Shown here piece after piece: positions 1-55,361 of a DNA stretch of 56,337 bases. The notes below the pieces were generated by a model. That model had not been told where the DNA came from. It was given only the letters and a program-made list of their open reading frames with translations, and searched no databases. Where the stretch lies: the IMG/VR virus record IMGVR_UViG_3300010354_000005, positions 1 through 56,337 of that record, one strand, 5' to 3'. The position numbers and the translations under genes were made by a program. Numbering within the stretch: position 1 is the first letter of the stretch; every line of letters starts with the position of its first letter. The DNA comes from a virus (taxonomy: Duplodnaviria > Caudoviricetes).

Positions 1-123
1 CGGGGTATAAGCAACATTACTTGTTATTTTTCAAACAGGTTATGCTATACTTGTGGCAAAATGAAAATACATGTGCATATATAGTAACAATATCTAGCGC
101 AGCGTGGCGCAGCGGTAGCGCGA
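1..123. repeat. Terminal direct repeat, copy 1 (probable circular assembly overlap)
   Basis: 1-123 is identical to 56215-56337 and ends inside tRNA-Met. Confidence 0.95.
43..51 (+). promoter_or_regulatory. Putative extended -10 promoter for tRNAs and late operon
   Basis: TG-C-TATACT in an AT-rich stretch about 45 nt upstream of tRNA-Met. Confidence 0.4.
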
Positions 124-172
124 TGGACTCATAATCCATAGGTCACAGGTTCGAGTCCTGTCGCTGCAACCA
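98..172 (+). tRNA. tRNA-Met(CAT), initiator-like
   Basis: Cloverleaf: acceptor CGCAGCG/CGCTGCA with C1:A72 mismatch, anticodon stem ATGGA/TCCAT, loop CTCATAA, T-loop TTCGAGT, encoded CCA. Confidence 0.93.
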
Positions 173-254: not shown

Positions 255-328
255 TACCCATTGGTGTAATGGCAGCATCCTAGTCTCCAAAACTAATGGT
301 GGGGGTTCAAGTCCCTCATGGGTAGCCA
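255..328 (+). tRNA. tRNA-Trp(CCA)
   Basis: Acceptor TACCCAT/ATGGGTA, discriminator G, encoded CCA, anticodon loop CTCCAAA, T-loop TTCAAGT. Confidence 0.92.
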
Positions 329-29800: not shown

Positions 29801-32611
29801 CCGATCATGAAAACCCTGAAGCGTCTTGGTGAGCGCGGGTTGTCAATTGAGGACGTTGATCTGTTCCTGATGGCACGTCACGCAGAAGAGCGTAACTCCA
29901 CCATCTCGGCAATCAATCCTGACAACCGTAAAGGTTCCGGTCTAACTACAAAGGATGCGCAGAAAATCCTCAGTTCTAGGAATAACGGCGCTTGGGATGT
30001 AGCGGCTATGAACGATTTGGAAATCATTGGCCGGCTGATGGATCAGATGTCAACAGATAAACTCAACTATCTGTTGCAGACAGGCATGATCTCGAAGTAC
30101 CAGTACGAGGCGCTGAAGCGGTACAAGCATTACGTCAATCTGTCTGGTAATACCGAGACCGATCTGGATAAGTTCGACACTACTCAGTTGGGCGGTCGCG
30201 CATTCAACGTGCGTGGTACGGACATTATCCGCTCGACAGGCCGCGGCACCGTAGCAGTTGACGTACTTCAAAACACGATGAACTCCTACCTATCGGCAAT
30301 CATCCGTGGCCAGAAGAACCGTCCGTTGCAAGCCATCCTCGATATGTTCGAGCAGAACCCTGACAAGACCTACGTCGAGGTGAATCCGATTGAGACTGTG
30401 CAGCGCGTCAACATCGAGAAGTTCAACTTTGACAACAAGATCCTGAAGATCCTCGGTACCGACAAGGATGATGTGCGGGCTGGCAAGAACTTCTTGGTTG
30501 GTCTGAAGGAGCGCATGAAGCGTGGCGAGATCGATTCGGATGACGCACTGGCTGAGATCGTTCAGCGTATCCGTCAGGCCGAGGAGCGCCGTGCAATCCA
30601 ACCGGATGAAGCTGCCCGTGCCCTGCGCAACCTGAACGAGCAAGTTGTCATGACTGCAAGACTGTCCCCCGATGGCTACGTCAGTATGGTTGAGTTGTCC
30701 GGTCGCCGCGATCCTAACGAGGTAGTGGTCAAGGTCGGTGGCAAGAACATCAGTATGGTATTCAAGAACGGTGGTCTGCCATTCTTCCAATCCATCACTG
30801 GCATGGACATCCAAAGAAGTAATGCTGTCGTAGAGTATATGGCTAAGTGGGCTCAGTTCTTCAGCCAGATGGTCACTACTTGGAACCCAGCTTGGATCCC
30901 GATCAACATGATCCGAGACATACAAACAGCCTACTCGAATATGGCCGCTGACCCAGAAGTCGGGGCTGCTCTCGCTAGTAAGATGACCAAGGCATACGGT
31001 CGAGCTTACAAGATTGCAACCAGACACCTTCTTTACGATTGGGCTAATGTCAAGGATGGCCGGTTCCGCAATATGGTTGACCGTATGCAAACCAAGTATC
31101 CGATGAGTGCCGAAGATGCCAAGCTAATCGAAGAGTTCTTTGAGGATGGTGCCGGCACCTACTTCCTTGACAGGGGTAGCGTTGAGATGTCTCTGCAAAA
31201 TATGCAGAGCGCAATGAACGCCAACAAGGGTGGTGCTACCGGAATGACCTTAGCTGCAATCAAGGAACTCGCCGCCAGCGTGGAACTGGTTGGTATGGCT
31301 GGCGAGATTGCTCCGCGTCTTGCTGCGTACAAGGTTCTGCGCGAAGCCGGTAAGTCCCGCGAAGTTGCCGCACGGTACGCCAAAGAACTGACAGTCAACT
31401 TCAACATGAAGGGAACCAGCAAAGCCTTGCGCGGTATGTATGTGTTCTTCAACCCAGCAGTACAGGGCACGATGCGTATGTTCAAGGATCTCAAAGCTGG
31501 CAACTTGGGACGCTTTGGTACAACCGCTGGTGTCTGGATGGGTCTTGGCTTCTTGTCAACTATGGTTGCTAGAGCCCTCAGCGGAGATGACGAAGATCAT
31601 CCGGGCGTAGACACAATCGATATGGTTGCTGGCTACAAACGCAACACTAGCTTGACTTGGTTGCCGGGAGTTGTCGGCGGCTCGATCCCTGTGGCTTACG
31701 GCTGGAACGTGTTCTCCGCAGCAGGTCAGTACATGTACGATGTGGTGCATGGACACATGCCTTCAGGCGAAGCTGCTCTGAAAGTTATGTCAGCAGCATT
31801 CGACTCGTTCTCGCCAATTGGTTCTGGCGCAGATTCGAAATCTCTGATGGGCATGGGCATCAAGACGATTACACCTAGTATCGCTGTGCCGGCTGCTGAA
31901 TGGCTGATGAACGAGAACAGGTTCGGCGCTCCGATCTACAAGGCGCAAAGTCCTTACTCTGACATCAAAGAGGCGAACGCGTACATGCACTTTGATTCGG
32001 TCAACCCGATCTCGAAGTGGGCTATGCAATCGCTGGTGGAAGTTGGCACCAACAAGAACGCTAGGTACACCCCGGGTCTGGTAGATGTCAATCCCGCAAT
32101 GGTAGACCACATGATTAAGTCGTATGTCCCCGGCCTATTCGCTGAGGCATACAACGCAGCAGGTGTGTCCATCAAAGCAGCAAGGGGAGAAGAGACCAAG
32201 GATATGCCGGTGCCATTCTTAGACCGCTTCAAGGCAAAAGCGGAAGCTGAAGGTTTCGATTCCTCAGCAGTTCGTAACCTCAAGGTTACAATTGACACGA
32301 TGTGGGAATCTTGGAAACAGCCTGACACAACTCCAGAGGAGAAAGCGAAGATGAAGCGCGACTATCCTGAGTTGGCAAAATTGAAAGCTCTGTCTCAAGC
32401 CAATGAGCAAGCAATCAAGTCTGCTCGTCAGTCTGCCGCCAAAATAGAACGCGACCCCAAAGTCTCAGACGAATACAAAGTCGAGGTTCGGAATCGCGTC
32501 AATGACCTTGAGCGTGGCTACAATGCGCGGCTGGTCAAGAAGGCACTGGAAGCTGGGTGGAGAGATACTATTCTTTACGGCGACGGTGAACCTGCTCCTC
32601 CGCCTCGGTAG
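23831..32611 (+). CDS. Giant polyvalent ejection protein (HExxH domain; LPD38-like C-terminus)
   Basis: 2926 aa; HELFH at aa 813; C-terminal N..RD...AKELTVNF...FFNPAVQG...NENRFGAPI pattern. Confidence 0.8.
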   Translation: MATSPLYKTSDEAGTESRRKGQAISSGKYEPGAFARQAIGTEYVPGQYASQQIGQNYTPGVVADQALAAGLPSPSSRRRGIAPSPSGPSAAPTFDPLKAYEESILKDQPQSELRSSAPEGNFLGDSANDLVIGGLQLYGAGYEIANLVSGGAIDQAIKDRTGKTGTQNLAEGRRMLQADQSPALRAQQKELEDAKGFVDSFATVLTNPRLAGSLTMQMVPQLATIGMAARAVAMKTLAWGAEAGLSAEAATAAASTNAARTVLGLNAAMEGGMAGADTRNHILNMTEAELSKSPQYQALLRSGMDPMLARQKLANDASLISTALAASISAVASKVTGAAKLEAAVLGGVVNKVEREVGKKSGMTIAKELGFAGVKETAEETLQEGGAQFAQNVAKQQKIDEQQALMEGVPEAAGAGGAMGLLAGAGFGGAKVAIEKGAEAIATPPGSSTTGQTYSGPGAGRLTDVEMVSAARSPAFMAYQWSVADDATRIRLQNANPNLNLQALAQDVDLVAQGKRLSDSAPQFGQTFLNQLEEFDLTTAQAAADQTQRIAGAPSMEGVKTDADRAMQEAGEGIVSTPPAPSTDQEADVGGDTGVPQITDMSMEEQINRLRGYKRRAQNLEGLPENYRRQQAELSVQEMVDQGFPETVARGVFGGLLYGPSLETVLSEGGHTASQEPAGEVESIGGTPIATQTTLVQETPQKPVTEVLTEFGDKRMSDGTMTDDQFRDALVNWDNRRQGTDGKSTRSDYEIVPLPAPMQKLADALGIQLKGWAWKGDPYRLVSTRQGISMGKGVIGINFGTTSQGGEFVVFGHELFHELASRDRQAADNLIAAMQDFLDGDITEDLREKLRQVGYKEDILAEEIVADVLGVLFAEQSFWKKMAEVQPTLLEKIIDIIRQMINRMSQFGTREKMVRNAIKDLQRVEDMMVGFLNDAINKQAAGTSVQDNIQLNATQAEALQNVRSLLKEGKRSEAAAAFKAANLWKETGLNFNEIETQEVAPIAEEAEVPMRRPQEEVDAENAYRAMLETVDLLRAGNIPAAAKAFKAGNLSAFGENFNELAAQIASERKKRVSEAQFQSDEQKRLTLKSKRSMFDRQIESITSGVTRRVEEMMQQRKDLAIAGARAFRETQTQERAAALMGEEKQRGLLADDTGGVMTQMAELGMYGGAEAQAEASEKRTKAEAARAESDRLAEENATIHNNRVRALLYNADRGLDQLAKVRQEMAAVGYSSNEIEAAVGKSEADLKSLRDGELRKLAEEQLRDAKNIGQREVVTKTEPEQYPGFNEIQAELDLNDDQRRNALALLDAVERKEMSMDDALKAIKVNKIGQMQLYDAMRQRGVPVPKAWIDISGNIAVNYPLNEWVKGFPNSAMAARDAWFRAVDAVPEGVIDLTEGEMVSYRNWKKQTTELRKRLQERQDPWGGEFNSMENAFPHALPLNYTLNEMRNPDSIPEGDRRQMIKMEFEDPVRAWFKDVQYIEQSRPDLGPQFANFLTKAEQEAYAEFKEREASEARRAVEMKTKSALYSQIDGLRFLSPKVYTDFRTQISQAEENQLPAIMQAAFEANEFAEMAKAGGAEFETIGELMNRRAGEDEGLAQSPDQMSTEEELDDDGNYIGYDDSIRFKRGTNSGVLPALNTIESVTEMFRNWKNVPAHTVVQNPNQLPDDVRARIQSSFAASGFKAATDPKTGHMYLFSDFLDGDTDTQFAVFNEIYGQFGVRGFMGDSFKTFLDNQYRLNRKTIIAADKLIAERRAMGIPTTTAEATYAVLGDTAIHTIHTKFANWLDKNGFPAVADWIRSSTNTEVSSILSGVTESAKSNGISPLGGQPNDSMSFDRKKMPVEGYAYRNGQITAYARVNPITGDWIVFTIKPGADSINSGDYNITTTDDLQIAHDMMKQHGTVRLARARETLRYIGPENIEKIKTWNEDDPSWKKFYRWVRQGAQNRFLPIWEVAHQMMMSGKSNTVIDDLVKYESRTGYYIDNYKRRYMYPIMKTLKRLGERGLSIEDVDLFLMARHAEERNSTISAINPDNRKGSGLTTKDAQKILSSRNNGAWDVAAMNDLEIIGRLMDQMSTDKLNYLLQTGMISKYQYEALKRYKHYVNLSGNTETDLDKFDTTQLGGRAFNVRGTDIIRSTGRGTVAVDVLQNTMNSYLSAIIRGQKNRPLQAILDMFEQNPDKTYVEVNPIETVQRVNIEKFNFDNKILKILGTDKDDVRAGKNFLVGLKERMKRGEIDSDDALAEIVQRIRQAEERRAIQPDEAARALRNLNEQVVMTARLSPDGYVSMVELSGRRDPNEVVVKVGGKNISMVFKNGGLPFFQSITGMDIQRSNAVVEYMAKWAQFFSQMVTTWNPAWIPINMIRDIQTAYSNMAADPEVGAALASKMTKAYGRAYKIATRHLLYDWANVKDGRFRNMVDRMQTKYPMSAEDAKLIEEFFEDGAGTYFLDRGSVEMSLQNMQSAMNANKGGATGMTLAAIKELAASVELVGMAGEIAPRLAAYKVLREAGKSREVAARYAKELTVNFNMKGTSKALRGMYVFFNPAVQGTMRMFKDLKAGNLGRFGTTAGVWMGLGFLSTMVARALSGDDEDHPGVDTIDMVAGYKRNTSLTWLPGVVGGSIPVAYGWNVFSAAGQYMYDVVHGHMPSGEAALKVMSAAFDSFSPIGSGADSKSLMGMGIKTITPSIAVPAAEWLMNENRFGAPIYKAQSPYSDIKEANAYMHFDSVNPISKWAMQSLVEVGTNKNARYTPGLVDVNPAMVDHMIKSYVPGLFAEAYNAAGVSIKAARGEETKDMPVPFLDRFKAKAEAEGFDSSAVRNLKVTIDTMWESWKQPDTTPEEKAKMKRDYPELAKLKALSQANEQAIKSARQSAAKIERDPKVSDEYKVEVRNRVNDLERGYNARLVKKALEAGWRDTILYGDGEPAPPPR

Positions 32612-44370: not shown

Positions 44371-44828
44371 GCTACTGCCCTCCCTGTGAACTTAAGTGAT
44401 TGAGCCTTGAAGGTCGGCTCGTTTGGTAGATAGCTTGGTTCGATGTGTCTACCTGCTATCTGCTCAAAGACAATCTTGGTCATCTTCCACATCAGCTTCT
44501 TGTCGATGATGTAGTTACGCCAAGCCATCATGCGACCGTCATTAGTAAAGCCAGAACGACGGCGTATTAGATTGTTGTATTCATCGGCGGTCATCGTGAC
44601 TAAGTGGTTGCTGTAGTCTTGGCGACGGGGGCCGATGATAAGACTGACCATCCGATCAAGAGGGCAATCTTGACTAGCCGACAACGAAACATATTCGCGA
44701 GGCAGGTTATCGATACCCACCCTGAAACAATAGGTGGGCATGACGTTAGACAAGCAGCGGAGTATTACATCCTTCTCCGCCATCTCGCCTATGAACTTAC
44801 TATATAGTCGTGTCATCTTACTGCACAT
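44367..44828 (-). CDS. Hypothetical protein
   Basis: Follows the amidotransferase; start uncertain. Confidence 0.65.
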   Translation of the reverse strand: MCSKMTRLYSKFIGEMAEKDVILRCLSNVMPTYCFRVGIDNLPREYVSLSASQDCPLDRMVSLIIGPRRQDYSNHLVTMTADEYNNLIRRRSGFTNDGRMMAWRNYIIDKKLMWKMTKIVFEQIAGRHIEPSYLPNEPTFKAQSLKFTGRAVA

Positions 44829-46101
44829 AGCTGTGTGCTCCTTTCGAAGAGTGAGGTTTAACAATGCCAGCCAACTCAAGCAGAAGATCTTCGTGCTCTG
44901 CCCACATATCAATCACGCAATCTGCACCGTAGTTAGCATCGCTGTTGATACGATCAGACAGAACTTCTGAGTTGAACTGCTTGGATGACTCGTCACCGTA
45001 CATCTCATACAGTAGAGCTGCGCACTTCATTGGGTTCTCACTTACCCAACGAATAACACCGTGATAATCCTCGGTCATCATTGCGTTATAGCTTGAGCGA
45101 ACGATGCGGGCGAGGGCTTCGGTTGATAGTCGGACTTTAGGGTTAATGCGCCGAGAGGCCATCGGTGTATTATCGCGTTTGATACCGGCTTGAACTGCGG
45201 CCTTATTAGCTTTAGCCTTGGCTTTAGCTTTTGCCCGACGTACTCGTTGGCGATTAGCTTGAGCCTTGGCCTTACCATCCCACGGGAGTTGAGCTTGAGC
45301 TGAAGCTGTTGTGGTTTCTTGTTGCTTACGTTCGACCGAAGGAGATCGGTACCCTTCCGCTTCCCACTTTTTGTACTCGCCTTCTTCTTCGAGTTCGTTC
45401 CAGTAACGCCACGAACTGCTGCTGCCGTAGTGGTTCCGCGCTTTGGGAGAGTGGTTGGTTTCTTGGTACCGACTTTTGGTGCTTGGCGACGTGTTCGTCC
45501 CACCTCCATAGTAGTTGTATGAAGGGGCTTGCTCGTATCCGTGCTTCCAAGGAGTCCATGCGTAAGTGTTTGAATACCAGACACCATCGTACTCAACACC
45601 AGCATGCTTGTTGATAATGTAAACATCGCCAGCAGCATTCATGAAGCCGAACTTATTGGACGCGCCAATGTGAACGCCGATGTACCCACGGATGTACGGA
45701 TTCTCAAGAGAGTCGGGGCTTTGCTCAAGCATAGGCTTAAGAAAGTCTTGGATGTAATGCCATGTGTCGGATTTGGTTAGATCCTTAGAGTTGCCACTTG
45801 AGAGAATACCGTTGTGTGCCATCCACAAACCATCTACCACATCGTATGGATGACAGTTGTGCAGATCAATGTCGCCGTGAGTTTTCATGCGGAAGTGGAT
45901 GACAGCTTCATAGCATGCGATCTCTTTGTAGTACAGCTCAGTTACTTCCTTGAGCGAACCGACATGCTTGTAAACTACAACGCCGCGCTCATCACCGTGA
46001 TTGACGATGGCACCGAACCCGTCTGGATTTTTTGCGTAGAAGTCCGTTAACTGTTCTGCCGTGAAGCAGTAATCCTTCGGCTGATGAATGAGAATACACA
46101 T
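44818..46101 (-). CDS. Class II (Ntn) glutamine amidotransferase with C-terminal extension
   Basis: Cys after Met; NPDGFG, HFRMKTHG, HPY, HNG and SDT motifs. Confidence 0.9.
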   Translation of the reverse strand: MCILIHQPKDYCFTAEQLTDFYAKNPDGFGAIVNHGDERGVVVYKHVGSLKEVTELYYKEIACYEAVIHFRMKTHGDIDLHNCHPYDVVDGLWMAHNGILSSGNSKDLTKSDTWHYIQDFLKPMLEQSPDSLENPYIRGYIGVHIGASNKFGFMNAAGDVYIINKHAGVEYDGVWYSNTYAWTPWKHGYEQAPSYNYYGGGTNTSPSTKSRYQETNHSPKARNHYGSSSSWRYWNELEEEGEYKKWEAEGYRSPSVERKQQETTTASAQAQLPWDGKAKAQANRQRVRRAKAKAKAKANKAAVQAGIKRDNTPMASRRINPKVRLSTEALARIVRSSYNAMMTEDYHGVIRWVSENPMKCAALLYEMYGDESSKQFNSEVLSDRINSDANYGADCVIDMWAEHEDLLLELAGIVKPHSSKGAHSYVQ

Positions 46102-46133
46102 AGGTCAATTCCTTTTTGTTAAGTTGGTTGAAG

Positions 46134-47696
46134 TTATGCTGCTGATGCTTGAGGAGTGGTTTGCTCGTTATCATTTCCGCTATCCAATGATAAGTAAGAA
46201 CGCAGGTAACGATTCTCTGCCTTGCGTTCTGGTTGCATGAGCCACTGCTTGAAACCGATTGCTGTAAACTGAGTAAGTGAAACCTCGCCGGGAGTGCAGA
46301 AGGTTAGCAAGGAGTTAACAAACTCTAGGGCTGCCATTACTGATTCGTATCGCAGTGAACCACGGAAAATCCTGAACTCGATTGTCTCTGCATTCGTGAC
46401 GTTCAGGGCCTCGTAACGCTCGGTACTGTGCTTGCCGTGTATGGTGAACTTAGCCATGTGCGGCTTGAAGCGGCAGTAGTTATTGTCATAACGGCGGGCA
46501 ATCGAACGAATCAACGCCTCGTTACGGACATCGTTAAGGAAGGACTGCACACGGTAGATCTGGCCTTGAGTCAGGAACTCACGACCGACGTGGACATGCA
46601 GACCACAGGCACCACCCTCATGAGAACGGAAGCCCATCTTCAACTGAGGATTATTAAGGAACAAAGCTAACCGTTCCCGGTGTACGTCGAGACCTGCTGG
46701 TTGTGTGACCATCTCGAAGCCCTCGCCGATTGAACCGTCGCGCTCGAAGAAGCAGTACTCGCCGGTCTGCTGGGTCTTGTAGTTGACAGCCTCATGGATT
46801 GCCGCCAGCTTCTTATCCAACTGACCAGATCGGATCTGAACCTCAAGCTCGATGCCGAATGCCCTGCGGTTTTGACGGAACCACGGGGAATCTATGATGT
46901 CAAAGCCACGATTGCGAGAGCTGTGATAGCTACCCAACAGATCGCCGTAAGGAGTCCAGTGTTGGTCGCACCAGATACTAAGGCGGTCATTCCATATCAG
47001 ACCAGCAGTACGCCTGTCATCAATGTATGTATTGTTTGCGCGTGTATGAATCTGCACAGCAAACGACGTGAGGATCAGTTGACTACGGTTGTTGTGAATA
47101 CGGGTACCATTCGCTAGTTCTTTCTGCGCACATTCTCCGCAGTAAGTACCCTCCGCAGTGTAGTCTGCGTCATTACCACGCCAGCGGAAAGCCTCACCGT
47201 GTACTTCGTAGTGACCGCAGTGTGCGCGATTGAAGTGATATGTGCCAAGCCAGTTACTAAACCAAGTCTCTTGACTGTGGTTAGCTTGGGCTCGATCAGT
47301 AGATATGAAAGCATTGTGCCACTGATTAGCTATCTTTTGATAAGCTGTGGATGGACGACCGCTTTCAAGGTTCATTGTACCCGGGCCAGCATGGATACCA
47401 AGAGCAAGTATATCCATAGTGAAATGAGAGCGAAGCAGACCGGTCTTGTAGTTCTTGCCAACCTCATCAACAACTCCACGAAGCCACGCTACCATCTGGA
47501 TGCGCTCATCGCTCGTCATATTCTCCATGACGTACTGCAATAGGCAGAACCACTTGTTACGGTGTACGTTGCTACCGTTCGAGCGGCTCATCGAATACAT
47601 ATACTTCTTCATGAAAGCTTTGAAGTACCCTCTATTGTTACGGTAGTCCGTTGCTTTCCTGCGAGTGTAGTCATACAGACTGAACAGTGTGCTCAT
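46134..47696 (-). CDS. Amidoligase (COOH-NH2 ligase type 2)
   Basis: FGIELE, DGS, EMVTQP, CGLHVH, RYEALN, TIEFR.FRG; N-terminal HCGH...CGEC. Confidence 0.9.
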   Translation of the reverse strand: MSTLFSLYDYTRRKATDYRNNRGYFKAFMKKYMYSMSRSNGSNVHRNKWFCLLQYVMENMTSDERIQMVAWLRGVVDEVGKNYKTGLLRSHFTMDILALGIHAGPGTMNLESGRPSTAYQKIANQWHNAFISTDRAQANHSQETWFSNWLGTYHFNRAHCGHYEVHGEAFRWRGNDADYTAEGTYCGECAQKELANGTRIHNNRSQLILTSFAVQIHTRANNTYIDDRRTAGLIWNDRLSIWCDQHWTPYGDLLGSYHSSRNRGFDIIDSPWFRQNRRAFGIELEVQIRSGQLDKKLAAIHEAVNYKTQQTGEYCFFERDGSIGEGFEMVTQPAGLDVHRERLALFLNNPQLKMGFRSHEGGACGLHVHVGREFLTQGQIYRVQSFLNDVRNEALIRSIARRYDNNYCRFKPHMAKFTIHGKHSTERYEALNVTNAETIEFRIFRGSLRYESVMAALEFVNSLLTFCTPGEVSLTQFTAIGFKQWLMQPERKAENRYLRSYLSLDSGNDNEQTTPQASAA

Positions 47697-48033
47697 CTCC
47701 GCCACCTTTCTTCTCCTTAGGGAATGGAACTTTAGTAAAACTACCAACTGAATCGATCTTCTTGTTGAACTTCTCATCAAGTTTACGAACTCGGTTGGCA
47801 GTCAAGGATGTATTGCATTGCAGCTCATTAAGAAGCTCGTGGTTATCCCAGCACTCGATGTCATCGTAGTCTGCTTCCCATGTGCCTCCATTGGTATGAA
47901 TCTCACCGATGCAAGAATAGTCACTGTCATAAACCACATCCCAACTAAACTCACGGCGCATAAAATCTATAACCTTCTGCGCAATGTGTCCGTTGCCGGG
48001 ACGAAATGCCCTCAGCCAAACTCTATCAGTCAT
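47671..48033 (-). CDS. Hypothetical protein
   Basis: 120 aa with SD. Confidence 0.65.
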   Translation of the reverse strand: MTDRVWLRAFRPGNGHIAQKVIDFMRREFSWDVVYDSDYSCIGEIHTNGGTWEADYDDIECWDNHELLNELQCNTSLTANRVRKLDEKFNKKIDSVGSFTKVPFPKEKKGGGDEHTVQSV

Positions 48034-49583: not shown

Positions 49584-50132
49584 TCACCACCATGAGTCGT
49601 AGAATATTGCATTATCTTTAACATCTTTGCTGGCTTTCAGTAGGAACGAGTCAAGACTTTCAAGATCCTCAGGATAGATTGTCTCTGCTCCGAAGAAGAA
49701 TCCGCTCCGTGGTTTGAGCTGATCCTTGTCCCTAGCGTTGGCTAAGTCTGCAATGTCCTCAGCAAACAACCTTACTGTTGCACAATTGAAAACTTCAGCA
49801 CCGCCGGCACCTGTACGTTCTCGCCACAGATCTTCCATCCATCCATGAAGAGCATTGAACTTGCGCCAGTAGTGGTACTGTGAATCTATACAGCCACTCT
49901 CATGTGCAAGTTTGTCTGCCTTCATCAAAGAACTCCAATAGGCTTCACGATCATTAGTTGTCATCAATGAAAGCTCTGCGTCACTCTTGTCAGTAAAGCC
50001 AGAGAAGTATCTTGCTGCTCTCCGAGCTGGGAAATTATATGCAGTAACATCACCTACTGGATCATCCAAGTGCCTAACGTACTTCTCTACAACTGGTAGT
50101 GGTACTTTATATGCGTACATATCGAGACCCAC
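49584..50132 (-). CDS. Conserved phage hypothetical protein
   Basis: MGLDMY...YWRK.N.LH.W...FNC...GFFFG...Y.SWW pattern. Confidence 0.8.
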   Translation of the reverse strand: MGLDMYAYKVPLPVVEKYVRHLDDPVGDVTAYNFPARRAARYFSGFTDKSDAELSLMTTNDREAYWSSLMKADKLAHESGCIDSQYHYWRKFNALHGWMEDLWRERTGAGGAEVFNCATVRLFAEDIADLANARDKDQLKPRSGFFFGAETIYPEDLESLDSFLLKASKDVKDNAIFYDSWW

Positions 50133-50133
50133 G

Positions 50134-50415
50134 TTACCTCCCTTTCAAAGTAGTGATACATTTTTGATAAGTACTTTCGTACATCTTCTGCTTACAAGCT
50201 TTCTCAAAGTATGAGAACTTGCATGGGTGAGACATAGGCCAGCCGCTAGAATCTACGGCACCAGCCCGTGTCTCTATCTTAAGCTCTGTAACTGAACGCT
50301 GCGCATTCTCTTGGCACTGAGCGATAACTTCCTCAGTTGTTAGTCTGCGCGAATCGCTGTCGGCAAGATGCACAGAGCCAGCAACCAATCCGACAGTGAG
50401 TAGTTGGTATATCAA
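50134..50415 (-). CDS. Secreted Cys-containing protein
   Basis: Hydrophobic N-terminus, four Cys. Confidence 0.6.
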   Translation of the reverse strand: MIYQLLTVGLVAGSVHLADSDSRRLTTEEVIAQCQENAQRSVTELKIETRAGAVDSSGWPMSHPCKFSYFEKACKQKMYESTYQKCITTLKGR

Positions 50416-50747
50416 TAGTCATCCCTCCATATACATTCCATGCTGTAATCAAAGTCATCAATCCCCATGTAGGTAGTTACATCGTACATTGGGAAGTTGA
50501 CAATGAACACACGCTGAGTAGGAGAGTAGATCGAACAGCCCTTCATGATGTACCCCTTATCATCTATGACTGTCACTGATCCACCCGGCATACCCCTGAA
50601 TTCGCATGGATGATTAAAGAAATGCCTGACCTTGGGTTCAGTCCTGCTTTCCCAGCAGTGCTCAACCTGAACTGGCTTGGCATCGGCGGTCAGATAGTAG
50701 GCACCCAACACTGCAAGTATCAGTGCCCCTGCTGTTAGCTTGCTCAT
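50412..50747 (-). CDS. Secreted protein
   Basis: Signal peptide ending ADA. Confidence 0.65.
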   Translation of the reverse strand: MSKLTAGALILAVLGAYYLTADAKPVQVEHCWESRTEPKVRHFFNHPCEFRGMPGGSVTVIDDKGYIMKGCSIYSPTQRVFIVNFPMYDVTTYMGIDDFDYSMECIWRDDY

Positions 50748-50937
50748 TCGGGATTCTCCAAGCAGTTAATCATCTTCTTGATAGCTTCGTACTCGTCAGT
50801 GCTATTGACCGGGAGTTCTTTGGCTAACTCGGACAAGAGGATGAGGGAGTTATCTTCTATGATCTTAAAGGATCTGGTGCCCGAGTCACTGAGGATCCTG
50901 ATGTGTGCTTGTATTTCATAGTCTAACATTGCTCCTC

Positions 50938-51483
50938 CTACCAAAATGTATTTGATACAGCAACTACGATTGTTAACATAACTGCAACAGATAGCCATAA
51001 GAAGAACAGGTTGGGTTTCTCTGCATCTCTTACGCCCTGTTGGTACAGTTCCTCCGCTTGCTCACTGACACGACGGTCGAGTGCCACGCCGATGTGATAA
51101 TCAATCAGCTCATCTAGTGCTAGTCGAGCGTTAGTCTCATGCTCCATGCGGTATATGTGGGTAGTAACCAGACCCTCTATGACTACGAACTTGAACGGGT
51201 TCTCGTTGTAGCTGTCGAGTGATCGGAGCTTATTGTCCTCGCTCTTGGCTTTCTGGTACCCCATCTCGTATCCCTCTTGGAATGGATCGACACCGGCGGG
51301 AACAGGATTAGTTGCAAGATTGTCAGCACCAAGTGAGTAACCACCCATGTACTCATTAGGATCACAGAAGGAACAGTACTCCTTGTCCTCTGGTACCTTA
51401 ATCATTTTGCAATCTTTGCAAACCTTCTTGCCCTTGCCAATACGCTTGATCTGACCAACCCAATCTTCAAATGAATTATCCAT
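50938..51483 (-). CDS. Zn-finger protein with C-terminal transmembrane helix
   Basis: CKDC...CSFC and a hydrophobic C-terminus. Confidence 0.6.
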   Translation of the reverse strand: MDNSFEDWVGQIKRIGKGKKVCKDCKMIKVPEDKEYCSFCDPNEYMGGYSLGADNLATNPVPAGVDPFQEGYEMGYQKAKSEDNKLRSLDSYNENPFKFVVIEGLVTTHIYRMEHETNARLALDELIDYHIGVALDRRVSEQAEELYQQGVRDAEKPNLFFLWLSVAVMLTIVVAVSNTFW

Positions 51484-51724
51484 CGGTCTCTCCACATTCT
51501 TGTTGGAATCTACGGTAGCGATACGATGCCTCTGCGCTACCACCCTTCGGGTTCTTCTCACGCCACTCTGCCATAGCTTGCTCTGTGCAGGTAGGCTTAG
51601 GAGTACAGCCAACCATCAAGATAATTACAGCAGCTACCAAGATGTAAGGCCACAGCTTAGCTATGCTGTCTCCGATGTCGTCGAACCACCCGATTTCAAA
51701 CCACGCTTTCTTTTGTTTACACAT
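51476..51724 (-). CDS. Putative lipoprotein
   Basis: Hydrophobic stretch ending MVGC. Confidence 0.55.
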   Translation of the reverse strand: MCKQKKAWFEIGWFDDIGDSIAKLWPYILVAAVIILMVGCTPKPTCTEQAMAEWREKNPKGGSAEASYRYRRFQQECGETDG

Positions 51725-51894
51725 GCTTTGGTCTCCTTACGAAGTAGCTGGGATGCAAAGGCTTGGTTCTCGACGAGCAAGTCTTGGATGTACTCTTCCT
51801 TCTGAACTAGCTCACCGTGAAGCAGGTATGCTGCGACCCATCCCAGAAAGGCAACAACCATTAGTATACAAATGACAACATATTCAAATACCAT
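51661..51894 (-). CDS. Membrane-anchored protein
   Basis: SD AAGGAG; N-terminal transmembrane helix plus coiled coil. Confidence 0.6.
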   Translation of the reverse strand: MVFEYVVICILMVVAFLGWVAAYLLHGELVQKEEYIQDLLVENQAFASQLLRKETKACVNKRKRGLKSGGSTTSETA

Positions 51895-51895
51895 A

Positions 51896-52189
51896 TCAAT
51901 CTCCTTGCTTAAGTTCTCCCTTAGTACACATTCTTTCAAGCTTTGTCAATAGCTTTGTATAGCATGTGAACGAAGAGTCTTTGGGGTTACAGATCTTCTC
52001 TTTCTTCATGATGTTGAGCTGAGTTTGCTGGTCTATCTTGATACTCATGAGTTCTTTGACATGATCTGCGGCGTATTGCTTGCAGTCCTGCTGTGTCCAA
52101 GGCTTGATCTCTTGTGCGATTGCGCGGGTAGAAGAGATGAACAGCATCAGAAGTATTGTCAATAAGACAATGAATAAATATCTAGCCAT
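51896..52189 (-). CDS. Secreted Cys-containing protein
   Basis: Signal peptide ending AIA; four Cys; SD GGAGG. Confidence 0.65.
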   Translation of the reverse strand: MARYLFIVLLTILLMLFISSTRAIAQEIKPWTQQDCKQYAADHVKELMSIKIDQQTQLNIMKKEKICNPKDSSFTCYTKLLTKLERMCTKGELKQGD

Positions 52190-52485
52190 CTCACCTCCCT
52201 GCAAAGATCATTACCAATGCCCATACCGTGAAGCACAAGGCGGCAAGGACAAGCAGCAGCATCTCATCTATCGGATCGATGAGTGGGTCTTTGTCGTCGT
52301 CATCCATTAGAAAATCCTTCAACTAGCAAATGACAAGATAGCAACAACCCAACCTACGATCCAGAGTGTTGCCAATATTGTATGAACCCACTCAGCGTTA
52401 TACCAAGCGTTGCTTTCGCCACAGTTAGGACAGTCGCCCTCGCAGACGGGGCCGTGGACGTGACCGCAATACTTACAAGACATAT

Positions 52486-52698
52486 CTATTCCTCCTGCTT
52501 CTGGTTAGCGAATCCCTGCTTGTGCGTCTTGAAGAAGAGATCGATCTCCTGCCTGATCTCAGTTTGGTCAACGCCGTGCTTCTCGCAGGGTTCAATGGGG
52601 TTGCCGCAGAAATCTCTGGGCACCGGACGGTGAGTGATCCGCCAGACAACGATAGCATAGATCACCAGCCATACCCAAGGTTCGGCTATATCAACCAT
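52486..52698 (-). CDS. Small membrane protein
   Basis: N-terminal transmembrane helix, C-x6-C. Confidence 0.55.
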   Translation of the reverse strand: MVDIAEPWVWLVIYAIVVWRITHRPVPRDFCGNPIEPCEKHGVDQTEIRQEIDLFFKTHKQGFANQKQEE

Positions 52699-52885
52699 CT
52701 GCTACCCTCCAATCTGTCTCGGTGACTATCTCCACGTCAGTCCAAGCTGCCAGATGAACTACCCCACCTGACATGTCCGTACAATAGGAGTACATGCCAT
52801 CGATGTGATGGAAGAACAGCACCCCATCCTCCTCGAATCCCTTGATGCGGATACGGGTATTATTGGGTACGTTATAGAGTTCCAT
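52691..52885 (-). CDS. Conserved small phage protein
   Basis: LYNVP...FHHIDGMYSYC; SD AGGAG. Confidence 0.7.
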   Translation of the reverse strand: MELYNVPNNTRIRIKGFEEDGVLFFHHIDGMYSYCTDMSGGVVHLAAWTDVEIVTETDWRVADG

Positions 52886-52895
52886 AGTTCTTCTC

Positions 52896-53105
52896 CTATG
52901 TATTGAGCAAGTTGTTCATCTGTTGGATGCGCTGCTGGTACTCAAGCTGGTCGAGCCGCTTCTCTGTCTCCGTCCTAGTGTCAGGCGCGGGAACACGGGA
53001 GGCACAGCCAGATAGGAAAGTGATAACAACTACAGCCACGCCAATGAGGAAGGCATGCCATAGTCCAGTGAGTATAAGGTCGAGTAGTTCTTGCTTGGTT
53101 TTCAT
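52896..53105 (-). CDS. Putative lipoprotein
   Basis: Hydrophobic stretch ending LSGC. Confidence 0.6.
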   Translation of the reverse strand: MKTKQELLDLILTGLWHAFLIGVAVVVITFLSGCASRVPAPDTRTETEKRLDQLEYQQRIQQMNNLLNT

Positions 53106-53407
53106 TAGAGTCCTCCGGTAATAAAGTAAATCAAAGACATACTGATTGCTGCTGTCCATAAGAACACGGGTAGATGGGTGATGCGCGCCGCCCATGTTGC
53201 CCGTCTTATGTAACTCTTGATAACATCTTCTAGGTCTGTACTGCGTAGGTCAAAGGCTTTCATATTCTTAAGCATGAACGGCCAGAAGAACATGTAACCA
53301 AAGGTTGTAGCTACAGTGCCCGATGATCCTTGGATCCCACGTCCGATGCAATGTGTGGCAATCAAGTAACCTATTAAGAAGTACGAGCATATTATGATAC
53401 TAAGCAT
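53105..53407 (-). CDS. Membrane protein
   Basis: Three hydrophobic segments; SD GAGG. Confidence 0.65.
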   Translation of the reverse strand: MLSIIICSYFLIGYLIATHCIGRGIQGSSGTVATTFGYMFFWPFMLKNMKAFDLRSTDLEDVIKSYIRRATWAARITHLPVFLWTAAISMSLIYFITGGL

Positions 53408-53416
53408 AGTTTCCTC

Positions 53417-53542
53417 CTATGTAAACAAGTTGATAAGTTTCCTAGTGTAGTAGCAGATAGGCCAGCCGACCGCCAGTGCCACATAAAGCAATGAGAAAGG
53501 CCACATATACTTCCACCACAGATCGTCCAATAATTTCCTCAT
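53417..53542 (-). CDS. Small membrane peptide (41 aa); not in the ORF track
   Basis: SD GAGGAG; MRKLLDDLWWKYMWPF. Confidence 0.55.
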   Translation of the reverse strand: MRKLLDDLWWKYMWPFSLLYVALAVGWPICYYTRKLINLFT

Positions 53543-53638
53543 GACAATCTCCTCAGCACGGAGCGATCACTCAGGCGAGAGGTAGCCTTGGCGAACGCTA
53601 AAAGAAGGCGAAGGCCGGGAGAACCCCAGCCCCCACCG

Positions 53639-53755
53639 CTAGTGCCCACTAATCTCATCGTTAACGTAGGCAATGACATAACAAAGGACTCCGATACCAG
53701 CTAGAGTCCACGCAATTAACCACAGATCCCATAGTATTTCAAGTAGTAAGGACAT
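53639..53755 (-). CDS. Small membrane peptide
   Basis: SD AAGGAG, one transmembrane helix. Confidence 0.55.
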   Translation of the reverse strand: MSLLLEILWDLWLIAWTLAGIGVLCYVIAYVNDEISGH

Positions 53756-53756
53756 A

Positions 53757-53918
53757 TCAATCTCCTTTGTATTTGTTGAAGCCTTCAACGAACACCCCAG
53801 CTGCGAAGAACATATTGAGTGACCATATTGGTGAGTGCTCGGGAGAAACCCAAGAACCAATAAAGCATACTGCTGAAGCCAGCCCTCCGATTATCATCAT
53901 TCCGGGATCTTTGCTCAT
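53757..53918 (-). CDS. Small membrane protein
   Basis: SD GAGGAG, hydrophobic. Confidence 0.55.
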   Translation of the reverse strand: MSKDPGMMIIGGLASAVCFIGSWVSPEHSPIWSLNMFFAAGVFVEGFNKYKGD

Positions 53919-54044
53919 GTCATTCTCCTCTAGGTTGATAGGTGAAGTCCAAGCCGCAGCGATACAGCTTGGAGTATACGTTCCAACTGATCGGCTGGAA
54001 TCCTTGGAACTGAGCACGTTGACAGTACCGATAGTACCCTAATG

Positions 54045-54317
54045 CTACTTGTGATAGGTATCGTGAGTCCATGATCCAGCCTCCCAGTTGTCAAACTCAT
54101 AACGGAACATGTAATCCCTGCGGAATTCGAGGAAGTCCTGAGCGATAAGACCGACACCGAATCCCATGCCGAACCCCGACAGCATAACGCCGACCGCCCA
54201 ACCACCAAAGACAAAACCACATGCTACGAACGCTAGGATAACGCAAGCCAACATAACTGGATAGTCACGATCAGATGCTAACCAACGTAAGAAGATAGAT
54301 TCATTGACTGTGGACAT
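54045..54317 (-). CDS. Membrane protein
   Basis: SD AGGAG, two hydrophobic segments. Confidence 0.65.
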   Translation of the reverse strand: MSTVNESIFLRWLASDRDYPVMLACVILAFVACGFVFGGWAVGVMLSGFGMGFGVGLIAQDFLEFRRDYMFRYEFDNWEAGSWTHDTYHK

Positions 54318-54334
54318 AGTGGACTCCTAAGTAG

Positions 54335-54381
54335 AAAAAAAAGAGCGACTACCCAGCACGCTTGAAACTGGATAGCCGCCC
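54335..54381 (-). terminator. Intrinsic terminator upstream of the long early operon
   Basis: Minus strand GGGCGGCTATCCAG/CTGGGTAGTCGCTC (14 bp including three G-U pairs) followed by T8. Confidence 0.85.
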
Positions 54382-54421
54382 GAAAGAACCGTAGGAACAT
54401 GGCGAAACCTACGGTGGAGAA

Positions 54422-54522
54422 CTAGCAGCAAGGAGGATTTACCCAACTTAGGTTGGCGACCTCCTGCTGACCTGAGGATTTACCCAGCTTGAGCTGGCGA
54501 CCTAGGTATCGAGTATTGCTAG
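54422..54522 (-). ncRNA. Structured RNA element with two covarying 30-nt repeats
   Basis: 54433-54462 and 54474-54503 are 26/30 identical with a compensatory pair; closed by CTAGCA/TGCTAG. Confidence 0.65.
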
Positions 54523-54654
54523 GATGATAATTGCTATCATGGAGATGAAATAACCGATAGCTAGATAGAGTTCGAGAGCTGGTGACATGATGATCTCCTG
54601 AGGTTATCGCGGGGAATACCTGAGAACAGGCACCCCCCACGGAAGAACTACCAA

Positions 54655-54990
54655 TTAAGAGTTAGTAGCCTTAGCACAGAACATAGAACGAAGAAGGATC
54701 TCAGCTTCGATAACCAACTCATCCTTAGAACCAGAACGAGAAAGCTTATCCAGAGCCATGAGAGCCTTACCGGTCATCTCAACCTCCGAAGAAGTCATAC
54801 GAGCCAAGACACGACCACCCTTAGCTGCCAGTTCAGTCTTGTCACGCTTGGAGGCAGGAGAAGTCCGAATAGCCCAAGAAGCTTCCCACGAAGTAGTAGG
54901 AATCGTACCAACAAAGATACCACGCTGTGCCATAGCCTCCAAACGAGACTTCTGTGCATCAGTAATAGGACGAGCTGTAGCTGTAGTCAT
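54655..54990 (-). CDS. First gene of the early block; 111 aa with two short helical repeats
   Basis: SD GGAGG; PITDAQKSRL...TSWEAS and PASKRDKTEL...TSSEV. Confidence 0.75.
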   Translation of the reverse strand: MTTATARPITDAQKSRLEAMAQRGIFVGTIPTTSWEASWAIRTSPASKRDKTELAAKGGRVLARMTSSEVEMTGKALMALDKLSRSGSKDELVIEAEILLRSMFCAKATNS

Positions 54991-55361
54991 AGCAACCTCC
55001 AAAAAGAAATAAAGATAAAAGAAAGAAGAGGTGACGAGCCCCTTCACGAATAGTGAGGGGCGAGGAACCGTGAAGGTTGAAGCCAAAGGAAGGTGACAGA
55101 AAGCACCCTAGTCAGTTCCAAAAAATCCTTATGAATCAAGGGGAGTTCCCGCACGCGAGTCTAATTGTTCCCAAAACAGCAACAAAGTACCCTGATTGTC
55201 GCTGGAAATGGGTAGAACAGACGCTAAGAACTCCGAGAAGTAGCATACCTACAGTGTATGAGTACCCCCTACCGGCACCCAAAGGGTATCACCCCCGGGG
55301 GTTGAGACTCAGCAGTATCCCATACACATACGCGACACCCGACTTTGAAGTAGAATACCTT

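What the first reader, a model, noticed from the sequence alone, without database searches (positions are those of the whole stretch)
54335..54990. Candidate antitermination switch: two-repeat protein, twin-arm RNA, then a terminator gating the early operon
Seen, in minus-strand order: (a) a 111-aa gene with two short helical repeats; (b) a noncoding stretch with two 30-nt repeats 41 nt apart, AGGUCG-CCAGC-UCAA-GCUGG-GUAAAU-CCUC and AGGUCG-CCAAC-CUAA-GUUGG-GUAAAU-CCUC; (c) an 8-bp hairpin at 54388-54415; (d) a 14-bp terminator with U8; (e) about 10 kb of co-oriented genes. The four differences between the repeats are one compensatory base pair and two tetraloop bases. The asymmetric internal loop (UCG/GUAAAU) is invariant, the outer stems differ yet still pair, and a CUAGCA/UGCUAG helix closes both arms into a three-way junction. 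Established: lambda N/nut and HK022 put (two hairpins) allow read-through of early terminators. Inference: this is an unrelated twin-site RNA, bound either by the two-repeat protein or by RNA polymerase. A free decoy sRNA ending at the terminator is an alternative.
Basis: partly seen in the sequence, partly recalled or inferred. Interest (0 to 1): 0.82.

Follow-up and report, generated by a model that had tools for sequence, protein, structure and literature searches.

The report
Conserved twin-hairpin RNA cassette in phage
A small group of uncultured water phages carries, early in its first operon, a movable stretch of RNA that folds into two nearly identical hairpins and fits no described RNA family; it does not look like a switch for the terminator beside it.

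Summary
The sequence features are real. Two 30-nt repeats lie 41 nt apart (54503-54474 and 54462-54433, minus strand), followed by an 8-bp hairpin and a 14-bp/U8 terminator.

The twin element (about 87 nt, 54423-54509) recurs in 36 of 42 related loci, in 10 distinct versions. Spacing is always 41 nt. The strings AGGUCG and GUAAAUCCU never vary, while both stems of each arm show compensatory changes. All 10 versions fold into the same two arms. There is one copy per genome, no Rfam family matches, and no hairpin-forming copy turned up in bacterial genomes.

- The closing helix (three-way junction) is not conserved.
- The terminator is not part of the unit. Four of nine twin-bearing genome types have no terminator-like site downstream, and all three twin-less relatives have one.
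- The twin is a clean ~100-nt presence/absence cassette that also changes position.
- It always lies downstream of the clade-specific 111-aa orphan gene, but that gene also occurs without it.

Best reading (about 0.4): a dispensable, self-contained RNA module in the early transcript that offers two identical sites to a dimeric or two-domain protein. An antitermination switch is about 0.15.

The parts
54655..54990 (-). 111-aa orphan gene (P0001), first gene of the minus-strand early operon
   Evidence: ORF and translation. No Pfam, PHROGs or PADLOC hit. 42 homologues, all unnamed and of similar size; only 7 representatives among 1.84 billion proteins. The AF2 model has pLDDT 90 and is all-helical. 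No fold match: Foldseek PDB best E 0.87, BFVD best E 0.068, VIA-align best Z 5.2.
54608..54641 (-). Strong hairpin directly after the P0001 stop codon
   Evidence: Present in the minimum-energy fold. A hairpin is kept at this place in 10 of 10 relatives aligned, including those without the twin.
54502..54588 (-). 28-aa hydrophobic small ORF whose TAG stop lies in the 5' strand of arm A
   Evidence: Translation; AGGAGA lies 6 nt before the ATG. The ORF is absent at this place in most relatives.
54423..54509 (-). Twin-hairpin RNA element, the whole unit
   Evidence: Covariance model R1 scores 100.3 bits here; the next-best hit in the window scores 9.3 bits. 36 of 42 related loci match at 83-112 bits.
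54470..54507 (-). Arm A: outer stem, UCG/GUAAAU internal loop, 5-bp stem CCAGC/GCUGG, loop UCAA
   Evidence: Fold. Across 10 variants the outer stem pairs in 94% of cells and the inner stem in 100%, both with compensatory changes.
54426..54469 (-). Arm B: outer stem with one bulged U, the same internal loop, 5-bp stem CCAAC/GUUGG, loop CUAA
   Evidence: Fold. The outer stem pairs in 92% of cells; pair 60-94 occurs as A-U 5, G-C 3, G-U 2.
54388..54415 (-). 8-bp hairpin between the twin and the terminator; part of a separate hairpin-plus-terminator module
   Evidence: L002 carries a compensatory change in this stem. L015 has the module without the twin. Rfam ctRNA_pGA1 scores only 25.3 bits against a gathering score of 45.
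54335..54381 (-). Intrinsic terminator: 14-15-bp stem, 9-nt loop, U8
   Evidence: my own scan gives -20.6 kcal/mol. The tool's consensus scan misses it, presumably because its loop limit is 8 nt.
54045..54317 (-). 90-aa gene after the terminator, hydrophobic in its middle part
   Evidence: ORF. No Pfam, PHROGs or PADLOC hit. In L016 its homologue follows the twin directly, with no terminator between.

Best explanation
The twin element is a self-contained, dispensable structured-RNA module. It is transcribed as part of the early minus-strand operon of a clade of phages that resemble HMO-2011. It works as RNA by offering two copies of one recognition site to a dimeric or two-domain protein. Each site is the invariant UCG/GUAAAU internal-loop strings, seated on AGG/CCU pairs below a generic 5-bp hairpin. 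The effect is autonomous: titration, decoying or assembly of that protein on the early transcript. It is not tied to the neighbouring terminator or to the downstream gene.

The binder is unknown. The adjacent orphan protein P0001 is the only candidate with genomic linkage. A host protein is at least as likely.

Shown here: the structure, its conservation, its cassette behaviour, and its independence from terminators and from the downstream gene. Inferred: action at the RNA level, protein binding, and the binder's identity.
For: 1. Structure under selection.
- 10 of 10 distinct variants fold into the same two arms, z -3.7 to -5.9.
- The four arm helices pair in 82-100% of cells.
The covariation score is 0.202 against 0.123 for shuffles (0 of 500 reach it), and the slid controls give at most 0.085.
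- G-U intermediates occur on the gene strand.

2. The pattern expected of a recognition site.
- AGGUCG and GUAAAUCCU are invariant in both arms of every variant, while stems and loops vary (loops UCAA, CUAA, CGAA, AGAA, CACAC).
- Spacing is always 41 nt.

3. Autonomy.
- A clean ~100-nt presence/absence difference separates near-identical siblings: L022 against L023, and L025 against L024.
- The element sits directly after the post-gene hairpin in most relatives, after a small ORF in the window, and after the 90-aa gene in L018.
- At least five unrelated downstream genes follow it.
- L015 carries a different hairpin in the same slot.

4. One copy per genome: the window and 5 larger relatives, where the only further match is weak (E 0.074, 13.8 bits, in G005).

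5. Every twin that has upstream sequence has a P0001 homologue upstream, 75-467 nt from the gene's end in the 9 types measured. That is 35 of 37 twin-bearing sources; the other two are cut at the twin.

6. The region is present in contigs of metatranscriptome libraries from 3 studies. This is weak, because such libraries can carry DNA.
Against: - No binder has been identified.
- P0001 has no nucleic-acid-binding family or fold match, and its internal repeat is not supported.
- P0001 is intact in three genome types that lack the twin (L015, L023, L024). The pair is therefore not obligate.
- In arm B of the variant class (L012, L046, L059) the invariant letters are partly paired, giving a 1x5 loop instead of 3x6. 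The conserved feature may be the sequence rather than the loop shape.
- Diversity is low: 10 distinct sequences from one clade. High identity could partly reflect recent spread of the cassette rather than constraint.
- The proximity to P0001 could be plain synteny or a preference for a promoter-proximal place.
- Contigs from RNA libraries cannot show transcript ends or strand.
Confidence: 0.4

Rival explanations
1. Antitermination element. The twin RNA either recruits P0001 to RNA polymerase, as a nut site recruits N, or binds the polymerase itself, as HK022 put does. Either way transcription reads through the early terminator(s).
For: - Two stem-loops with internal loops, about 87 nt, 0-2 nt apart, promoter-proximal in an early operon. 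This matches the general put architecture, described as about 70 nt with two stem-loops carrying bulges (passages of PMC9378689).
- In the window and L002 a strong terminator follows with no room for a promoter before the next gene.
- 5 of 9 twin-bearing genome types have a terminator-like site within 1.1 kb downstream.
- The twin is always downstream of P0001.
Against: - No association with terminators. 4 of 9 twin-bearing types (L029, L031, L044, L059) have none in about 3 kb. All 3 twin-less types (L015, L023, L024) have one within 0.5 kb, the same ones as their twin-bearing siblings.
- There is one element per genome, whereas put has one per early operon.
- The arms are near-identical, and the loops are not boxB-like.
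- P0001 is a folded helical protein that also exists without the twin.
- My terminator scan is crude and cannot see Rho-dependent sites.
Confidence: 0.15
2. RNA processing or stability signal. Each arm is cut or bound by a host endoribonuclease, RNase III or RNase E. This separates the first cistron from the rest and leaves protective hairpins, as the RNase III signals of the T7 early mRNA do.
For: - The element is always intergenic in a polycistronic early mRNA. It often starts at the upstream stop codon and ends 10-25 nt before the next ribosome-binding site.
- It is dispensable and cassette-like, with near-identical copies.
- Internal loops in RNase III substrates direct single-strand cuts that leave stabilising 3' hairpins, and the T7 early precursor carries five such signals (passages of PMC3867540).
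- T7 sites R0.5 and R1.3 share the string AAGGUCGCU with arm A of some variants (site positions recalled from memory).
Against: - Each arm has only 12-14 bp, interrupted by a 3x6 loop, against the roughly 22 bp of an idealised substrate.
- The similarity to T7 sites is not above chance. The best local alignments of all 10 variants to T7 (scores 22-32) fall elsewhere, none on the five early sites.
- Strict letter conservation, tandem duplication and fixed spacing are not needed for an RNase site.
- In the window the element precedes a terminator, not a cistron.
Confidence: 0.15
3. DNA-level element: single-strand hairpins or cruciforms serving as a promoter for a virion RNA polymerase (N4 type), an origin of replication or a recombination site. 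Alternatively, a functionless selfish insertion.
For: - Hairpin covariation alone cannot tell RNA from single-stranded DNA.
- The N-terminus of the 2926-aa virion protein matches a PHROG named virion RNA polymerase (phrog_2206, residues 168-641).
- The indel is flanked by the short direct repeat TTATCA.
Against: - No polymerase domain was found. Neither the whole 2926-aa protein nor its central 1300 aa matches any PDB chain, and the only Pfam hit that passes its cut-off is LPD38.
- G-U pairs on the sense strand would be C-A mismatches on the other strand.
- The outer stems also covary.
- There is one copy per genome, so the element is not proliferating.
- No copies were found outside this clade in what the scans returned.
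Confidence: 0.07

Closest known systems
HK022 put RNA (putL, putR), a cis-acting antiterminator
   Same: A phage early-operon RNA made of two adjacent stem-loops with internal irregularities, 70-90 nt, needing no obvious consensus loop (PMC9378689 passages).
   Different: The arms here are near-identical copies. There is one site per genome, not one per early operon. There is no association with terminators. The element is dispensable among close relatives. Binding to RNA polymerase is untested.
Lambda N / nut (boxB hairpin plus a small protein)
   Same: A small first gene of an early operon sits next to a 5-bp hairpin RNA site. This architecture is recalled from memory, not checked in a paper.
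   Different: The hairpin loops are variable tetraloops and the conserved letters lie outside the hairpin. There are two sites in tandem. P0001 is predicted to be well folded and helical (pLDDT 90). The protein also occurs without the site.
RNase III processing signals of the T7 early mRNA
   Same: Intergenic, repeated, dispensable hairpin cassettes with internal loops in a polycistronic early transcript (sequences read).
   Different: The helices are shorter. The sites here form a tandem pair at fixed spacing. Sequence likeness to the T7 sites is not above chance.
Type III toxin-antitoxin antitoxin RNAs and phage pseudo-ToxI
   Same: Short tandem RNA repeats, followed in the window by a Rho-independent terminator and a gene. 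Phages are known to carry such repeats as decoys (PMC5086642 passages; PMC3475682 abstract start in the search listing).
   Different: Only 30 of the 41 nt are repeated, and there are just two copies. The terminator is not conserved. The downstream protein has no toxin family hit. Covariation in the outer stems points to a two-arm fold rather than excised monomers.
RNA anti-CRISPRs (Racr; solitary CRISPR-repeat mimics in phages)
   Same: A hairpin flanked by short invariant strings, about 27-28 nt per arm, carried as an accessory element in a phage (PMC10651486 abstract start in the search listing).
   Different: No array and no hairpin-forming copy of the motif turned up in one genome for each of 185,579 species. 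The exact-pattern scan gave 11 hits, all non-hairpin and single. The repeat ends pair with their flanks.

Membership tests
Any Rfam 15 family | A match at or above the family's gathering score | tested here: not met
   Whole window: only two tRNAs pass. Region 54200-54800 at E<=10: nothing on the gene strand covers the twin. ctRNA_pGA1 scores 25.3 against 45 and covers only the hairpin and terminator.
HK022 put | About 70 nt with two irregular stem-loops | tested here: met
   87 nt with two stem-loops, each carrying an internal loop, 0-2 nt apart. The feature is taken from PMC9378689.
HK022 put | One element downstream of each early promoter | tested here: not met
   A single strong model hit in the window and in each of 5 larger relatives.
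HK022 put | Serves read-through of downstream terminators | tested here: inconclusive
   No association with terminator-like sites: 5 of 9 with the twin against 3 of 3 without it. The scan is crude and Rho-dependent sites cannot be seen.
HK022 put | Binds the beta-prime zinc-binding domain without any protein factor | not testable with these tools
   Needs biochemistry.
Lambda N / nut | boxB-type hairpin with a conserved purine-rich loop that is the recognition site (recalled) | tested here: not met
   The loops vary (UCAA, CUAA, CGAA, AGAA, CACAC). The conserved letters lie in the internal loop.
Lambda N / nut | Protein and site always occur together | tested here: not met
   P0001 occurs without the twin in L015, L023 and L024.
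RNase III processing signal (T7 type) | A double helix of about two turns carrying proximal and distal boxes | tested here: inconclusive
   12-14 bp per arm, interrupted by a 3x6 loop. Cellular substrates can be under 20 bp.
RNase III processing signal (T7 type) | Sequence relatedness to the T7 signals | tested here: not met
   The best alignments of 10 variants to T7 do not fall on the early sites.
Type III toxin-antitoxin locus | Tandem repeat array, then a terminator, then a ToxN/CptN/TenpN-type toxin gene | tested here: not met
   The terminator directly follows the twin only in the window and L002. The downstream 90-aa protein has no Pfam or PADLOC hit.
RNA anti-CRISPR (repeat mimic) | Likeness to the CRISPR repeats of a host | tested here: inconclusive
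   No array carries the exact motif in the genome collection. The host is unknown and only exact matches were sought.
ANTAR dual-hairpin target (recalled) | Two tandem hairpins with hexaloops, the second overlapping a terminator, plus an ANTAR-domain protein | tested here: not met
   The loops here are tetraloops or pentaloops. There is no overlap with the terminator. P0001 has no Pfam hit of any kind, so none to ANTAR. The family's features are recalled, not read.

The most novel reading that the evidence does not exclude
The twin hairpin is a new kind of phage RNA decoy. It would be an accessory, early-made RNA carrying two copies of the recognition site of a dimeric host RNA-binding immune or regulatory protein, for example a repeat-processing nuclease or an RNA-antitoxin-controlled toxin, and it would soak that protein up during infection. 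A variant of this reading: together with the orphan protein P0001 it forms a previously unseen ribonucleoprotein of phages resembling HMO-2011.
Probability: 0.2. Interest if true: 0.8.

Novelty: new variant of a known kind. Interest (0 to 1): 0.55.

Why it matters
Structured RNAs in the early operons of phages (nut, put, RNase III signals, RNA decoys) are few and come almost entirely from coliphages. This is a well-delimited candidate family, supported by covariation, from uncultured freshwater and estuarine phages related to HMO-2011-type and Rhizobium podophages.

Its architecture is unusual: a tandem pair of hairpins whose conserved letters lie in an asymmetric internal loop. Natural presence/absence variants already exist, which gives ready-made controls. 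If a binder is found, the element would define either a new RNA-protein regulatory pair or a new RNA-based counter-defence. If not, it is still a new RNA motif for Rfam-type curation.

Tried and rejected
- Homology to T7 RNase III sites. A shared string noticed proved no better than chance matches elsewhere in T7.
- CRISPR-repeat or host-RNA mimicry. The exact-pattern scan of genome contigs gave 11 single, non-hairpin hits. This is no support, and it is not an exclusion.
- Copies outside the clade. Of 113 matches in the new loci, 1 had a marginal 4-bp stem and none resembled the arm.
- N4-type hairpin promoters. No polymerase domain was found in the 2926-aa protein.
- P0001 function. Nothing came from Pfam, PHROGs or PADLOC, nor from Foldseek PDB, BFVD or VIA-align wide. 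The ESM Atlas gave scores of 0.83 or less, which is chance level. The profile search of 1.84 billion proteins returned 7 hits; the 2160-aa hit is not supported by hhalign, probability 3.4%.
- Internal repeat of P0001: hhalign probability 0.4%.
- blastn of the region against 50,697 phage records: no match.
- RNA-library contigs. They cover the region in 4 runs of 3 studies, but contigs cannot give ends, strand or level. Contig ends at 54420 coincide with a module boundary where other variants carry a 67-nt insert, so they are most simply assembly-graph branch points.
- Literature. Four searches for put, RNase III, Racr and ToxI gave background only. A search on HMO-2011 with transcription terms listed 8 of 426 papers, none holding the term HMO-2011. 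I therefore found no description of this element in those searches.

Full report
**What the window is.** The 56,337-base window is a complete virus record with a 123-bp terminal repeat. Its portal protein is most like those of Rhizobium phages (34% identity), Roseobacter CRP phages and Puniceispirillum phage HMO-2011. The host is therefore probably an alphaproteobacterium; that is an inference. The window encodes a terminase, a portal, a primase/helicase, an ERF recombinase, an exonuclease and a RusA-like resolvase. I found no RNA polymerase. The 2926-aa virion protein matches a 'virion RNA polymerase' PHROG only over its N-terminal residues 168-641. Neither the whole protein nor its central 1300 aa matches any PDB chain, and the only Pfam hit that passes its cut-off is LPD38.

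**The observation.** On the minus strand, in order:
- the 111-aa gene P0001 (54990..54655);
- a strong hairpin (54641-54608);
- a 28-aa hydrophobic ORF behind a good ribosome-binding site (54588..54502);
- the two 30-nt repeats (54503-54474 and 54462-54433);
- an 8-bp hairpin (54415-54388);
- a 14-15-bp terminator with U8 (54381-54335);
- a 90-aa gene (54317..54045), followed by co-oriented ORFs down to about 43.8 kb.

The repeats are the only two matches in the window at up to 3 mismatches, and shuffles give none. The 'noncoding' stretch does, however, contain a small ORF whose stop codon lies in arm A.

**Relatives.** P0001 and DNA patterns taken from the repeat retrieved related contigs:
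- 18 viral loci through the protein;
- 13 viral loci through the DNA pattern;
- 18 metagenome loci, of which 12 are real and 6 are chance matches without hairpins.

This gives 10 distinct versions of the element. In all of them the two arms start 41 nt apart. AGGUCG and GUAAAUCCU are invariant in both arms. The 5-bp stem occurs as CCAGC/GCUGG, CUAGC/GCUAG, CCAAC/GUUGG or a shifted GCUAG/CUAGC. The loops are UCAA, CUAA, CGAA, AGAA or CACAC.

**Structure.** I counted my two-arm structure on the 10-sequence alignment.
- Arm A pairs in 94% of cells in its outer stem and 100% in its inner stem.
- Arm B pairs in 92% (outer) and 82% (inner).
- 10 of the 31 pairs tested show changes on both sides.
- The covariation score is 0.202, against 0.123 for shuffles (0 of 500 reach it) and at most 0.085 for slid controls.

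RNAalifold finds arm A and the core of arm B's outer stem on its own (its inner-stem pairs for arm B are in another register). Pair 60-94 occurs as A-U 5, G-C 3, G-U 2. All 10 variants fold into the two arms as their minimum-energy structure, z -3.7 to -5.9. In the variant class (L012, L046, L059) arm B re-registers. Part of the 'loop' letters then pair, although the letters themselves stay the same.

**Distribution.**
- A covariance model of the element hits the window once (100 bits; next-best 9 bits).
- It hits 36 of 42 related loci.
- It hits each of five larger relatives once strongly; the only further match is weak, E 0.074.
- Rfam has no family for it.
- An exact-pattern scan of one genome for each of 185,579 species gave 11 single hits, none forming a hairpin.

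**Why it is not a terminator-coupled switch.**
- The hairpin-plus-terminator module follows the twin only in the window and L002. Most relatives run from the twin straight into a ribosome-binding site and a gene.
- L015 has the hairpin and terminator without the twin, and carries a different 12-bp hairpin in that slot.
- L023 differs from L022, and L024 from L025, by a clean ~100-nt absence of the twin between nearly identical flanks. The twin-less forms keep the same downstream terminators.
- In my own scan for a hairpin plus T-run, 5 of 9 twin-bearing genome types have a terminator-like site within 1.1 kb downstream. The other 4 have none in about 3 kb. All 3 twin-less types have one within 0.5 kb.
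- That scan is crude and blind to Rho-dependent sites. It still gives no positive association.
- The downstream gene also differs among genomes, with at least five unrelated proteins. A gene-specific translational operator is therefore unlikely.

**Link to P0001.** Every twin that has upstream sequence lies downstream of a P0001 homologue. The distance from the gene's end is 75-467 nt in the 9 types measured. That holds for 35 of 37 twin-bearing sources; the other two contigs are cut at the twin. P0001 itself is an orphan:
- 42 unnamed homologues, and 7 representatives among 1.84 billion proteins;
- no Pfam, PHROGs or PADLOC family;
- a confident all-helical model (pLDDT 90) with no fold match.

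Many of its invariant residues are basic. Its proposed internal repeat is not supported. P0001 is intact in L015, L023 and L024, which lack the twin. The linkage may be functional, or it may only reflect synteny near the early promoter. A conserved block and a 5'-UTR hairpin lie upstream of P0001.

**Mechanism.**
- The pattern is two identical sets of invariant letters at fixed spacing, on otherwise free hairpins, in an element that comes and goes as a cassette. The element is indifferent to what lies downstream.
- This fits best a self-contained RNA that presents two identical sites to a dimeric or two-domain protein, as a sponge, decoy or platform. I put this at about 0.4, with the binder unknown.
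- Antitermination (nut-like or put-like) I put at 0.15, for the reasons above. The put features were read in PMC9378689.
- A processing or stability signal I put at 0.15. The analogy to the T7 RNase III signals is architectural. The helices are short, and the sequence likeness is at chance level.
- A DNA-level or selfish element I put at about 0.07.
- The remainder is unassigned.
- Type III antitoxin-like and CRISPR-repeat-like decoys are special cases of the main reading. Neither has positive support here.

**Expression.** Contigs from metatranscriptome libraries of three studies cover the region. One is a 214-nt contig identical to 54420-54633, and others come from the variant class. Contigs cannot show transcript ends, strand or abundance, and DNA carry-over is possible. 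This is only a weak sign of transcription.

**Verdict.** The finding is a real, new, clade-restricted RNA motif with moderate covariation support and an unusual twin architecture. The specific 'antitermination switch' model is not borne out by comparison with relatives. Function remains to be shown, and natural twin-bearing and twin-less siblings make it testable.

Noticed in passing
window 54608-54641 (-); the same place in L015-L031: A strong hairpin directly after the P0001 stop codon is kept in 10 of 10 relatives aligned, whether or not they carry the twin. In the more distant relatives it is followed by UUUU; in the window's subgroup it is not. It could be a 3' stabiliser or a weak terminator of the first cistron.
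   Followed up: partly
window about 55025-55125 (-): Upstream of P0001 there is a T-run followed by an invariant AACTGACT block, shared by all 8 relatives aligned. After it comes a leader hairpin that differs in sequence between relatives, then a U-rich stretch and the ribosome-binding site. This is probably the early promoter or leader. No clear sigma-70 consensus was seen.
   Followed up: partly
L015 3385-3435: In the slot where relatives carry the twin, L015 has an unrelated 12-bp hairpin, followed by the same hairpin-plus-terminator module as the window. The slot seems to accept alternative structured-RNA cassettes.
   Followed up: partly
window 54420 (boundary between twin and hairpin module): Contigs from two RNA runs of one study carry about 67 extra letters exactly at this boundary, and a contig from another study ends there. 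This suggests a recombination joint between modules. The inserted letters were not shown.
   Followed up: no
window 54406-54417 and 54443-54454: The stem-loop of arm B (the variant found only in the window and L002) is 10 of 12 complementary to the 5' strand of the next hairpin. It could be an alternative pairing in just those genomes where the two modules abut, or it could be chance.
   Followed up: no
window 23831-32611 (+): A 2926-aa virion protein. Its N-terminus resembles that of N4-type virion RNA polymerases, and its C-terminal third matches LPD38 and DarB-like polyvalent-protein families. The middle holds an HELFH (HExxH-like) motif. No polymerase domain was detected.
   Followed up: partly
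window 50000-54317 (-) and the relatives' early regions: The early operon is packed with very small hydrophobic ORFs of 28-100 aa, each behind a near-identical ribosome-binding region (TTATCAGGAGAACAACATG in relatives). These repeated start regions flank the indels and may be the recombination points that shuffle the cassettes.
   Followed up: no
window 44818-47780 (-): Adjacent genes with weak matches to a class-II glutamine amidotransferase and to an amidoligase.
   Followed up: no
window 98-172 and 255-328 (+): Two tRNA genes (Met-CAT and Trp-CCA) at the left end, ahead of the terminase gene.
   Followed up: no
P0050 (2160 aa, from the profile search): A giant protein elsewhere in the database shows seven weak matches to P0001 profile positions 55-94. 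hhalign does not support the match (probability 3.4%).
   Followed up: partly
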